From: Scyliorhinus canicula | Taxonomy: Eukaryota | Length of the DNA stretch: 64,000 nt | Reading direction: 5' to 3' | Assembly: GCF_902713615.1 (NCBI RefSeq) | Contig: NC_052166.1 | Span: 11,496,531 to 11,560,530 of the forward strand | Part shown: in pieces, positions 4,006 through 53,199 of the stretch | Layout: each line of letters opens with the position of its first letter | Position numbering within the stretch: position 1 is the stretch's first letter | Notes under the pieces: generated by a model | What the model saw: only the letters and a program-made list of their open reading frames with translations | Told to the model about the DNA's origin: nothing | Database searches by the model: none | Program-made: the position numbers and the translations under genes

Positions 4006-8126
<4,121 letters not shown>

Positions 8127-16564: not shown

Positions 16565-20687
<4,123 letters not shown>

Positions 20688-28000: not shown

Positions 28001-28209
28001 CAGGCGACGTCTGTTCAGCGGGAAGGTTTGAACTGGGTTTAACTGTTCGGGACTAAATGTCGAGTCTCTGGTGGATGGGGTTTCATTATCTGGACTCAGT
28101 GCGATGTTTTGGCGACTGACAGAAGAGGCCAGTCTCGCTTGCTGTCCGAAGCTCCTCTCATGGTCGACTGTGACCACCACATGGTTCCTCCTTGTACAGA
28201 TTCCAACCA

Positions 28210-28418
28210 GTAAGAAGTCTTACAACACCAGGTTAAAGTCCAACAGGTTTGTTTCAAACAACAGCTTTCGGAGCACGGCTCCTTCTTCAGGTGATCACCT
28301 GAAGAAGGAGCCGTGCTCCGAAAGCTCGTGTTTGAAACAAACATGTTGGACTTTAACCTGGTGTTGTAAGACTTCTTACTGTGCTCACCCCAGTCCAACG
28401 CCGGCATCTCCACATCAT
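28210..28418 (+). mobile_element. Non-autonomous Penelope-like element (inverted pLTR palindrome) with 12-bp TSD
   Basis: Absent from copies 1, 2 and 4. TSD AGATTCCAACCA at 28198-28209 and 28419-28430. Arms of 87 bp at 28208-28294 and 28295-28381, with no spacer and 3 mismatches. Contains a hammerhead motif. Confidence 0.8.
28296..28330 (+). ncRNA. Minimal type I hammerhead ribozyme motif
   Basis: CAC-CTGAAGA-A-GGAGC-CGT-GCTCC-GAA-AGCT-C-GTG: core CUGANGA/GAAA, 5-bp stem II, palindromic AGCT stem III, NUH site CUC (cleavage after 28327), stem I CAC/GTG. Confidence 0.72.
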
Positions 28419-28427
28419 AGATTCCAA

Positions 28428-28547
28428 CCAATCAGCGGCGCGAACCGGCATTCCATTTTATGTTACCGTTTCCCCGAGCAACCACGTCGCATTGTTCTCG
28501 CTGTCCAATCGGAACTCGTGTTTGCTTCACAGAATTCGGTATAAATA
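28428..28547 (+). promoter_or_regulatory. Tubulin copy 3 core promoter
   Basis: CCAAT at 28428-28432 and 28505-28509; TATAAATA at 28540-28547. Confidence 0.78.
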
Positions 28548-28604: not shown

Positions 28605-32733
<4,129 letters not shown>

Positions 32734-33282
32734 GATCCATTCATTTAGAAATCGTAATGGTTTAACTTAAATTCACATTGGTATTATAAAGTTTATTTAA
32801 GACAATAAAGTATTTAAATTTTCTTTGGAATACTCTCATTATTTGTCTCCGTAACCGGCCGGGCTTGCAAATCGGGATCTGAAGAGAAATATTTGAAGGT
32901 ACAACAGTTTCAATGGACACAGAAAGTAGGTCAAGTGCAACAAGCTCCACAGGGCGCAGGCCGAGAGTCACAGAGCAATTCAATTATCGAAACACTGTCC
33001 TCTGGAATAGGTGGATCGAAAGTATAAAGGGTTTCATTGATTTGTGCCTGAGTTAGTGGCCTCTGTTGGTTTCGGGTTACGAGCAGGAATGCGACTGAGT
33101 TCTGAACAAGCTGGTTATTCGTGATTTGTATTTTTTTGGCCAGTGAGATTGTATTCGCATTTGGAACTTGCTGGAAAGTTTAACGTTTACAATCGTTTGC
33201 AATTACTTTGTAGTTGCGCTATCGCACTAGTCAAATGTTCGCATATGTCGACCAAATATGATACTGAATCCTGGGAGGCTGG

Positions 33283-50674: not shown

Positions 50675-52615
50675 GATTCATTAATTTACAAATTCCAATG
50701 GTTTAACTTTAATTAATATTGGTATTATAAAGTTTATTTAAGACAATAAAGTATTTAAAATTATTTTGGACTACTTTCGTTTGTTGTCTCCGCAAGTGAC
50801 AAGGGTTGAAAGTCGGGATCGAAAGGGAAATATTTGACGGTAGTTGAGTATCAATAGACACAGAAAATAGGTCAAGTCCAACAAGCTCCACAGGGCGCAG
50901 GCCGGGAGTCACCGAGAAATTCAATTATCAAAACACTGTCCTCTGGAATAGGTGGATCAAAGACATAATAGGTTTAGTTGATTTGTGCGTTATTTCGTGG
51001 CCGCTCATTGTTTGGGGTTACGAGCAAGAATTTGATTAGGTTTTGAAAGACCTGGTTATTCGTGATTTGTTAATGCTTGATTCGCATTTGGAACTTGCAG
51101 GGAAGTTTAACGTTTACAATCGTTTGCAATTACTTTATTTCGTTATCGCACTACTCAAATCATCGCAAAATGTGGACCCACTATATATACTGAATCCTGG
51201 GAGGCTGACCTCCCCCAGTACCACAGTCGATATTGATCAGAGCGAAACATTCAAGAATCATCGAATCACACAGCAAAAGTGACGCCTCGCCAATCGAGTC
51301 TGCACCGACACGGTAAAAACACCCGACCTACCTCATTCCATTTGCTAGCACTTGGTCCATAGCCTTGAATATTATGACGTGCCAAGGGCTCATCCCGAGA
51401 CTTTGTAATGTAGGTGAGGCAACCCACTTCTACCACCCGCCCATGCGCAACATTCCACACCGTCACCACCATCTGGGTAAAAAAATGTTTTCCTCACAAC
51501 CACCCCACCTCCCCATACATTCTGCCATTTAAAATGTGCCCCCTCGTGACTCTAACCCCTCAACTAAGGGAACAAAGGCTCTCTATCCTCCCTGGCAATG
51601 CCTCTCATAATATTTTACACGCGATCAGTCTTGTCTGCTCAAAGATAACCCAGGCCTATCTAACCTTTCTCCATAACTTAAATTTTCCAGATAAGATTCT
51701 GGCGAATCTTATACCAGTAACGTGACGACCATAATTGCAAACAGTGCTCCAGCTGTGGCCTCAGCAAAGTTCTATACAACTCCAACATGACTTATCTTCT
51801 TTTGTAATCCATGTCTCGATTGATAATGGCAAGTGTCCAGTATGTCTTTTTCAGTACTCCGTTCACCTGCTGTTCCACCTTCAGGGATCTATGGACACAT
51901 ACTGCAAGGTTCCGTTGTTCCTCACAACTATCTAGTGCCGTGTCATTCATTGAATGCGTCCTTATCAAATTACTCATTCCCACGGGTATTGCCTCAAACT
52001 GTTCAGGGTTAAATTCCATCTGCCACCTATCTGACCCTTCGACCATCCTGTCTATTTCTTCTTGTAGCCCAAGACAATCAACCTCACTGTTAATTATGCG
52101 ATCATTATTTGAGTCATCTGCAAACTTATTGATCTAATCGTCTATGTCATTTATACATATGACGAATAATAGGGGACCCAGCACAGATCCCTGTAGTAAG
52201 TCAAAGGACAGTGAATCCCAGTCACTAAAGCAGATGTCTGTCATCACGCATTGTCTCCCAGAACTAATCAATTTTTGAATCAACCTAATGAAATTACCCT
52301 GTATTCCACCTGCACTTTCCTTCTTTATAAATCTCCCATGTAGGACTGGTCAAAAGTTTGCTGAAATCCATGTAAACTACACCAAATGCACTACCCTCAT
52401 TTACACACCTGGTCACCTTCTCAAAACTTTCAGTCCCCTGTGTTAGGTATGACCTCCCTCTGAGCAAGCCATGCTGACTATCGCTGATGATAGCCATGAT
52501 GTGGAGATGCCTGCGTTGGACTGGGGTGAGCACAGTAAGACCCTACAACACCAGGTTAAAGTTCAACAGGTTTGTTTCAAATCGCTAGCTTTCGGAGCAC
52601 TGCTCCTTCCTCAGG

Positions 52616-52970
52616 AAATTTTTATCATAGAATTTGCAGTGCAGAAGGAGGCCATTCGGCCCATCGAGTCTGCTCCGGCTCTTGGAAAGAGCACCCTACC
52701 CAAGGTCAACACCGCCACCCTATCCCCATAACCCAGTAACCCCACCCAACACTAAAGGCAATTTTGGACATTAAGGGCAATTTATCATCGTCATTCCACC
52801 TAACCTGCACATCTTTGGACTGTGGGAGGAAACCGGAGCACCCGGAGGAAACCCACGCACACACGGGGAGGATGTGCAGGCTCTGCACAGTGTTGCCCAA
52901 GCCGGAATCGAACCTGGGACCCTGGAGCAGTGAAGCAAATGTGCTATCCACAATGCTACCATGCTGCCCA
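52616..52970 (-). mobile_element. V-SINE at the centre of the Penelope-like palindrome
   Basis: Full-length SINE in reverse complement. Confidence 0.88.
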
Positions 52971-52981
52971 AGCCAGTCCAA

Positions 52982-53020
52982 TTCACCTGAGGAAGAAGCA
53001 GTGCTCCGAAAGCTAGTGAT
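52982..53020 (+). ncRNA. Minimal hammerhead ribozyme motif (second copy, one stem II mismatch)
   Basis: TCAC-CTGAGGA-A-GAAGC-AGT-GCTCC-GAA-AGCT-A-GTGA. The opposite arm (minus strand, about 52583-52615) has a perfect stem II but has lost the 5' strand of stem I. Confidence 0.6.
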
Positions 53021-53199
53021 TTGAAACAAATCTGTTAGACTTTAAACTGGTGTTGTAAGACGTCTTACTGTATCCCTGATGAAACATTGCCTCTTAAGTA
53101 GAGATTGATTCTCTACTTCAGAATTTTCTTCAATGGTATCACTATAACTGACGTGAGAATCAGTGGGCTGTACTCTTCTTTGTCAGTGTTACCTTCCTT

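What the first reader, a model, noticed from the sequence alone, without database searches (positions are those of the whole stretch)
28198..28430. Young hammerhead-ribozyme-bearing palindromic retroelement in a tubulin promoter
Seen: a 209-bp insert in copy 3 only, with a perfect 12-bp TSD and a spacerless 87+87-bp palindrome. The right arm reads CAC CTGAAGA A GGAGC CGT GCTCC GAA AGCT C GTG, a complete minimal type I hammerhead with an extra A after A9 and a self-complementary AGCT stem III. Established: Penelope-like elements carry minimal hammerheads in their pLTRs, thought to cleave as dimers, and often integrate with an inverted pLTR copy; an extra A after A9 occurs in a viroid (CChMVd) hammerhead. 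Inference: a non-coding, ribozyme-containing element family was mobile after the very recent tubulin triplication. It places a potential cruciform or hairpin next to the distal CCAAT box, about 120 bp upstream of the TATA box.
Basis: partly seen in the sequence, partly recalled or inferred. Interest (0 to 1): 0.85.

Follow-up and report, generated by a model that had tools for sequence, protein, structure and literature searches.

The report
Palindromic stub of active Penelope retrotransposon
A 209-base hairpin-shaped insert upstream of one tubulin gene copy is the ribozyme-bearing end of a very common, still intact Penelope-type retrotransposon; it is an ordinary kind of insertion, but many copies begin at one fixed point, which likely marks where the element's RNA starts and would explain how such hairpins form.

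Summary
In detail: a 209-bp insert with a 12-bp TSD in tubulin copy 3 only, an 87+87-bp spacerless palindrome (3 mismatches) and a minimal type I hammerhead. It is not a separate non-coding family. Both arms are the end of an autonomous Penelope-like element (PLE) with a 905-aa RT plus GIY-YIG ORF, intact in at least 12 near-identical copies; its ribozyme 33-mer occurs 12,351 times in the genome. Inverted copy, 37-nt tail, TSD, extra A and palindromic stem III are all published PLE features. Such 190-280-bp palindromes are the family's commonest head-to-head product (32 of 45), and this exact junction occurs only twice in the genome. New detail: 35 of 100 copies start within 2 nt of a TATA/initiator-defined +1, 57 of 57 pairs have one long and one short arm, and 0 of 98 start at the ribozyme cut site. 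This fits two cDNAs primed from both target strands on uncleaved RNA and run off its 5' end (inferred). The ribozyme lies upstream of the tubulin TATA box and is predicted to be locked in the hairpin. The scan noted the same class earlier in two other shark genomes.

The parts
28198..28209 (+). Left target-site duplication (12 bp); its last 2 nt are microhomology with the short arm
28208..28294 (-). Short (inverted) arm: PLE leader +3 to about +89; its hammerhead is mutated at N17 and 1.1 (28262, 28261)
28295..28418 (+). Long arm: PLE leader +3 to +126, ending in the AT of the element's start codon; 1 mismatch (28343) to full-length copy L095
28296..28330 (+). Minimal type I hammerhead: stem I 28296-28298/28328-28330, core from 28299, extra A 28306, stem II 28307-28319, palindromic 15.1-16.1, predicted cut after 28327
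   Evidence: descriptor in PMC4209133
28382..28418 (+). 37-nt PLE 'tail', present on one arm only
   Evidence: PMC8557442, PMC11167929
28419..28430 (+). Right target-site duplication (12 bp); supplies CCA of the distal CCAAT box (28428-28432), which stays intact
28505..28545 (+). Proximal CCAAT (28505) and TATAAA (28540) of alpha-tubulin copy 3, unchanged by the insertion
28605..32736 (+). Alpha-tubulin copy 3 coding region (ATG at 28605, then four exons whose matched stretches are free of stops)

Best explanation
The insert is a head-to-head pair of copies of the hammerhead-bearing end of an autonomous Penelope-like retrotransposon, likely made when the element's protein cut both strands of the target 12 bp apart and primed two short cDNAs on the uncleaved 5' leader of its own RNA. 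One cDNA would start at about +126 and the other at about +88 (the two initiation sites that define the 37-nt tail). Both would run off the RNA 5' end at about +1, 28-30 nt below the element's TATA box, and be joined end to end by host repair. Shown: parent element, arm coordinates, TSD, end distributions, ribozyme conservation. Inferred: that +1 is the transcription start, twin priming, run-off, end-joining. At this locus the ribozyme is likely inert: it lies upstream of the tubulin TATA box and is predicted to be trapped in the 87-bp hairpin if transcribed.
For: Parent: 12 stop-free frames of 925 codons (905 aa from ATG) in 11 of 20 loci chosen for long frames, mean nucleotide divergence 0.25%; RVT_1 E=7e-9; GIY-YIG core with two internal cysteines and a CX4CxxC linker; direct pLTRs plus an inverted copy. 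Counts: 12,351 exact 33-mers, 35,664 relaxed 29-mers, 1,515 short palindromes. In the first 100 exact matches, 3' ends fall at 86-94 (45) or 123-131 (49), and 5' ends at -2..+2 in 35, against 9 over the 28 positions from -30 to -3. 57 of 57 head-to-head pairs have one long and one short arm; 54 of 57 have an 11-16-bp TSD, mode 12. TATATAAA lies at -30 and +1 sits in a TCCATT context; a TATA-like box is kept at the same spacing in older subfamilies whose spacer has diverged. 0 of 98 copies picked by +36..+68 start at the cut site; only 171 palindromic junctions lie near it, all subfamilies counted, against 1,515 near +1 for the youngest alone. Junctions are varied and some carry templated snippets; this one occurs twice. 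In vitro, the anole PLE cuts and extends both strands, starts at two sites bounding the tail and uses uncleaved RNA (PMC11167929). Stem II pairing probability is 0.94 for the 41-nt motif alone and 0.00 in the whole insert.
Against: No RNA 5' end was observed: only contigs were available. D. virilis Penelope has an internal TATA-less promoter (PMC2377424), so a TATA-driven start is not the class rule. Among 32 ORF-bearing copies only 2 start at -1/+1, and 5 more were cut off by the locus edge. 25 of 98 copies start between +8 and +34, so the peak has a broad shoulder. One 2.9-kb head-to-head unit with the same junction sits at two sites with different flanks (L031, L032), so whole palindromes can sometimes be copied or converted. 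Some simple junctions recur among the 50 listed. The 100-copy samples are the first matches on one contig, and the 5' extension was ungapped.
Confidence: 0.7

Rival explanations
1. Same parent element, but the palindrome arises by self-priming or fold-back of one cDNA (or an antisense template, as Arkhipova et al. 2013 proposed), and the pile-up near +1 reflects reverse-transcriptase stalling or template switching at the hammerhead structure rather than the RNA's 5' end.
For: PMC3846280 proposes self-priming from junction palindromes. Many junctions lie in or next to the ribozyme and are self-complementary. No direct mapping of the transcription start was possible.
Against: The peak is just upstream of the ribozyme, at the TATA/initiator spacing. 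Fold-back of one cDNA does not by itself explain why every pair has exactly one +88 and one +126 end at a 12-bp stagger (57 of 57). Arms differ in start point and some junctions hold extra templated bases.
Confidence: 0.2
2. The short palindrome is a non-autonomous, ribozyme-bearing element family (retrozyme-like) that is transcribed and mobilised as a unit by the PLE protein.
For: 1,515 short palindromes of similar size. L031 and L032 show one long palindromic unit at two sites. Animal retrozymes are reported as PLE derivatives (bioRxiv 10.64898/2026.07.22.740005).
Against: This junction occurs at 2 sites in the genome, and the second lacks this copy's private mutations and has a different long-arm end. 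Junctions are diverse. There is no tandem array. The ribozyme is predicted to be sequestered. The insert has no TATA box.
Confidence: 0.06
3. It is a MITE of a TIR DNA transposon, and the hammerhead is a chance match.
For: Short, palindromic, TSD-flanked, high copy number.
Against: Both arms match the pLTR/ORF start of an RT/GIY-YIG element; arms are unequal; the centre varies between copies; the ribozyme shows constraint and covariation.
Confidence: 0.01
4. Whatever its origin, the insert changes expression of tubulin copy 3 (cruciform next to the distal CCAAT box, 221-bp displacement of upstream sequence, or internal PLE promoter activity).
For: It abuts the CCAAT box; the inverted repeat is 87 bp with no spacer; D. 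virilis Penelope carries internal regulatory sequence (PMC2377424).
Against: CCAAT, TATA and their spacing are intact; the proximal promoter differs from copy 1 by 2 of 189 nt; copy 3's matched exon stretches have no stop; the element's TATA box and +1 are missing; three other copies of the gene exist. No expression data were available.
Confidence: 0.15

Closest known systems
Endonuclease-positive Penelope-like elements of the Neptune/Nematis type (Craig et al. 2021, PMC8557442; passages read)
   Same: Single RT plus C-terminal GIY-YIG ORF, CX2-5CxxC linker, two cysteines inside GIY-YIG, pLTR, inverted 5'-truncated copy, 30-40-bp tail on one end, hammerhead in the pLTR.
   Different: Here most head-to-head insertions sampled consist of the leader alone (190-280 bp) and start at one fixed point. 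Neptune versus Nematis was not resolved; no named reference sequences were at hand.
Minimal hammerheads of metazoan PLEs (Cervera and De la Pena 2014, PMC4209133; parts 1-2 of 4 and passages read)
   Same: No true helix III, extra nucleotide between 9 and 10.1, G10.1-C11.1, palindromic 15.2-16.2, thousands of dispersed copies, dual motifs 100-700 bp apart on opposite strands.
   Different: Stem II is 5 bp and stem I 3-4 bp here; the main text has no occurrence of 'shark' (supplements not read); the two motifs here are only a few nt apart.
Poseidon of Anolis carolinensis (Frangieh et al. 2024, PMC11167929; parts 1-2 of 4 and passages read)
   Same: Two initiation sites bounding the tail, both strands cut and extended, AT-rich targets (TSDs here are 68% A+T), uncleaved RNA used as template.
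   Different: Different clade. There the ribozyme overlaps the start codon and initiation is 111-118 nt into the ORF; here the ribozyme is about 90 nt upstream of the ATG and the long end coincides with the ATG. Their main text does not use 'palindrom' or 'transcription start'.
Adineta vaga Penelope insertions (Arkhipova et al. 2013, PMC3846280; passages read)
   Same: Head-to-head inverted pLTR 37 bp shorter than the direct one, 8-10-bp TSD, putative TATA and initiator in the pLTR.
   Different: They propose self-priming on an antisense template; they had few copies and the passages read give no end statistics.
Non-LTR retrozymes (bioRxiv 10.64898/2026.07.22.740005; part 1 of 5 and passages read)
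   Same: Non-coding, type I hammerhead, PLE-derived.
   Different: Retrozymes are head-to-tail tandem repeats with a ribozyme in each unit; this insert is a single head-to-head pair.

Membership tests
EN+ Penelope-like element | [quoted passage not shown] | tested here: met
   905-aa ORF, RVT_1 E=7e-9; GIY-YIG E=1e-3, just under its cut-off, on a C-terminal piece; motifs
EN+ Penelope-like element | Direct pLTRs, often with an adjacent inverted copy | tested here: met
   (L093-L103)
EN+ Penelope-like element | 30-40-bp tail on one end | tested here: met
   37 nt here; 57 of 57 pairs have one long and one short arm
EN+ Penelope-like element | Target-site duplication | tested here: met
   12 bp here; 54 of 57 have 11-16 bp
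Neptune/Nematis clades | CX2-5CxxC linker between RT and endonuclease | tested here: met
   residues 753-761 of P0002; feature defined in PMC8557442
Neptune clade proper | RT phylogeny with named Neptune references | not tested
   No named PLE references among the 120 homologs listed
PLE minimal type I hammerhead | Conserved core with N7, loop II and N17 free | tested here: met
   73 of 98 copies picked outside the ribozyme cover +7..+35; the four common polymorphisms are N7, two loop II sites and N17 (C/A/T, never G); core and stem positions are 68-73 of 73
PLE minimal type I hammerhead | Covariation of stems I and II and palindromic 15.2-16.2 | tested here: met
   A second family in the genome keeps the core and extra A with different paired letters; in its 25 motifs stem I pairs in 23, 14, 19, 17 and inner stem II in 20, 11, 19, 20; 460 matches against 127 for the reversed control. 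88 of 100 listed have a palindromic 15.2-16.2 (my count by eye). Copies of that family are old and degraded.
PLE minimal type I hammerhead | Self-cleavage as a dimer or with protein help | not testable with these tools
   Needs a bench assay
Non-LTR retrozyme | Head-to-tail tandem units, each with a ribozyme | tested here: not met
   Single head-to-head pair
Non-autonomous family mobilised as a unit | Many copies sharing one fixed structure and private mutations | tested here: not met
   Junction at 2 sites, left-arm variant at 1 site
MITE / TIR DNA transposon | Terminal inverted repeats of equal extent shared with a transposase-coding parent | tested here: not met
   Unequal arms; the parent is a retroelement

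The most novel reading that the evidence does not exclude
Penelope-like elements integrate by obligatory twin priming: the two nicks of a 12-bp staggered cut are extended from the two tail-bounding sites, and when the protein binds the 5' leader of a normal TATA-initiated, ribozyme-uncleaved transcript both cDNAs run off at +1. This yields thousands of MITE-like hairpins as the main product of an autonomous retroelement, and gives one explanation for the head-to-head structure, the one-sided tail and the dispersed 'solo' hammerheads of animal genomes.
Probability: 0.55. Interest if true: 0.6.

Novelty: new member of a known kind. Interest (0 to 1): 0.35.

Why it matters
The locus itself is ordinary: one of more than a thousand like insertions. 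Its value is as an example from a very young, very abundant PLE family with many intact copies in a cartilaginous fish. Craig et al. 2021 call the origin of PLE tandem/inverted structures still undefined. The end statistics here (fixed +1 start, one long and one short arm in every pair, 12-bp stagger, no use of cleaved RNA) make a twin-priming run-off model directly testable, and the intact 905-aa ORF would allow an in vitro system for a linker-bearing PLE. They also warn that TSD-flanked palindromes of about 200 bp in such genomes can look like MITEs or miRNA precursors.

Tried and rejected
DNA search of the genome with 28295-28418 returned nothing because common words are skipped; patterns were used instead. 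Rfam gave no hammerhead hit; the miRNA hits reflect the long hairpin and are below gathering scores. Single-strand folds of the motif are not better than shuffles (z from -1.7 to +1.0), as expected for a ribozyme without helix III. Sequencing runs: no holder is on record as RNA. Contigs of 4 of 24 listed runs were laid; the empty-site form seen in three DNA runs carries the copy 1/2 letter, so presence or absence in other individuals is undecided, and contigs cannot show RNA starts or cuts. The MAFFT alignment of ribozymes from two families misaligned stem II and was replaced by structure-anchored counts. The bacterial promoter scan does not apply to this organism. The first look-up of earlier findings was empty. 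Literature searches for a prior twin-priming or transcription-start account of PLE palindromes and for shark PLEs listed no paper that states it, judged from titles and the starts of abstracts except for the papers read. The library lacks most subscription papers (for example Evgen'ev and Arkhipova 2005 and Arkhipova 2006, seen only as citations), and no supplements were read, so novelty of the model is not established.

Full report
Observation. The window holds four tandem alpha-tubulin genes (ATG at 4006, 16565, 28605, 46036). Only copy 3 carries 209 extra bases (28210-28418) between two identical 12-mers; copies 1, 2 and 4 have the 12-mer once. The insert is an 87+87-nt spacerless inverted repeat with 3 mismatches plus a 37-nt unpaired extension on the right. 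Rfam gave no hammerhead hit.

Parent element. A relaxed 29-nt ribozyme pattern matches 35,664 times in the 4.2-Gb genome and the exact 33-mer 12,351 times; reversed controls match 0 times. Upstream of many copies lies a reverse-transcriptase frame. Of 20 loci fetched for long frames, 11 hold 12 stop-free frames of 925 codons, flanked by direct repeats of the same segment and usually an inverted copy. They differ by 0.25% on average. The 905-aa protein has RVT_1 (E=7e-9), a C-terminal GIY-YIG core with two internal cysteines and a CX4CxxC linker, the Neptune/Nematis signature in Craig et al. 2021 (PMC8557442). The closest named homologs are shark proteins at 82-91% identity, so the host is most likely a cartilaginous fish. 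Numbering from an A that I call +1, 30 nt below the first T of the pLTR TATATAAA and 124 nt above the ATG, the right arm is +3..+126 with one mismatch and the left arm is +3..+89 with two.

The insertion is typical. I mapped the first 100 exact matches on contig C1. 3' ends are bimodal: 45 at 86-94, 49 at 123-131, 6 elsewhere. Among 57 head-to-head insertions (45 rows from that sample, 12 from the long-frame loci), all 57 have one long and one short arm, and 54 have an 11-16-bp TSD, mode 12, 68% A+T (lengths above 12 are partly inflated by microhomology; one nested locus gave two rows). 32 of the 45 span 280 bp or less (my count). Genome-wide, 1,515 palindromes of this subfamily have their centre just above the ribozyme. 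Inverted copy, tail and TSD are described in PMC3846280 and PMC8557442, and Frangieh et al. 2024 (PMC11167929) trace the tail to two internal initiation sites.

Not a separate family. The window's junction occurs at 2 sites in the genome and its left-arm variant at 1; the second site lacks those mutations. The 50 junctions listed are varied, though a few simple ones recur, and some contain short templated repeats. Against full independence, one 2.9-kb head-to-head unit with the same junction sits at two sites with different flanks (L031, L032).

Ribozyme. The extra A and the palindromic 15.2-16.2 are conserved traits of PLE minimal hammerheads (PMC4209133). In 98 copies picked by sequence outside the ribozyme, 73 cover it; the four common polymorphisms are N7, two loop II positions and N17 (never G), while core and stems stay at 68-73 of 73. 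A second family in the genome keeps the core and extra A but changes stem I, stem II and the palindrome in a compensatory way (460 matches against 127 control; pair counts). So the motif is under ribozyme-like constraint in the parent. Cleavage was not tested. At this locus the left-arm copy is mutated at the cut site, and the right-arm stem II has pairing probability 0.94 alone, 0.007 in the 124-nt arm and 0.00 in the whole insert.

Mechanism. 5' ends pile up: 35 of 100 at -2..+2 and 14 at +3..+6, against 9 over -30..-3 (the pattern could not see starts beyond +6). In the second sample 25 of 98 start between +8 and +34 and none at +36, the ribozyme cut. Palindromic junctions near the cut number 171 for all subfamilies, against 1,515 near +1 for one. 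+1 lies 28-30 nt below a TATA box that older subfamilies keep at the same spacing, in a context that fits the vertebrate initiator consensus (recalled, not from a call). I infer that +1 is the RNA's 5' end, that uncleaved RNA is the template, and that two cDNAs primed from the two strands at +88 and +126 run off at +1 and are joined by repair. This agrees with the anole PLE in vitro: both strands extended, two start sites, unprocessed RNA used, and ORF sequence downstream of the start sites required, which in a pLTR-ORF-pLTR transcript exists only beside the 5' leader. Against: no RNA end was seen; D. virilis Penelope has a TATA-less internal promoter (PMC2377424, passages read); only 2 of 32 ORF-bearing copies start at -1/+1, with 5 more cut by the locus edge; self-priming (PMC3846280) is not excluded.

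Age and host effect. Copies 1-3 differ by 0.74% (1-2), 0.99% (1-3) and 0.97% (2-3) over 9 kb. Insertion on the copy-3 lineage is the simplest account. The insert's 3 changed bases in 211 suggest it is about as old as the triplication rather than much younger, with wide error. Loss from other copies by gene conversion cannot be excluded, and polymorphism is undecided. The TSD restores the distal CCAAT, the proximal promoter differs from copy 1 by 2 of 189 nt, and the matched exon stretches of copy 3 have no stop. The insert lacks the element's TATA box and lies above the tubulin TATA box, so the ribozyme should not be in tubulin mRNA. Any effect on expression is untested.

Verdict. A real, well-described but ordinary stub of a young autonomous PLE: a new member of a known kind. 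Two earlier notes of this scan on other shark genomes reached the same identification (seen after my own analysis). Interest 0.35.

Noticed in passing
window 52479-53082: An older-subfamily head-to-head insertion of the same PLE: long arm on the minus strand (about 52496-52615), short arm on the plus strand (about 52983-53071), 12-bp TSD with one mismatch (52479, 53071), with about 365 bp of other repeat sequence in its centre.
   Followed up: partly
window 19216-19217: Tubulin copy 2 has a 1-bp deletion in its long exon relative to copy 1 that shifts the frame: a young pseudogene or an assembly error.
   Followed up: partly
L031 and L032 (G000:C1 1.72 Mb and 2.84 Mb): The same 2.9-kb head-to-head PLE unit with the same internal junction lies at two sites in opposite orientation with different flanks and TSDs: whole-unit re-mobilisation or gene conversion.
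   Followed up: partly
L228-L257: A second, older minimal-hammerhead family with different stems and a different 4-nt palindrome; its parent ORF was not sought.
   Followed up: partly
L105 and L132: Two insertions of different length share the same 13-bp TSD inside homologous flanking repeats, a hint of a preferred target site.
   Followed up: no
L035:1090-4162: A long tandem array with a 39-bp period whose unit contains the first 30 nt of the ribozyme-bearing leader, lying between two PLE arms; a possible satellite or retrozyme-like by-product.
   Followed up: no
L104: Three head-to-tail PLE units at 2,707-bp spacing, shorter than the 2,984-bp full unit.
   Followed up: no
window 1-51200: The four tandem alpha-tubulin genes encode nearly identical proteins with a divergent C-terminal part ending in EEEE without a terminal tyrosine.
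   Followed up: no
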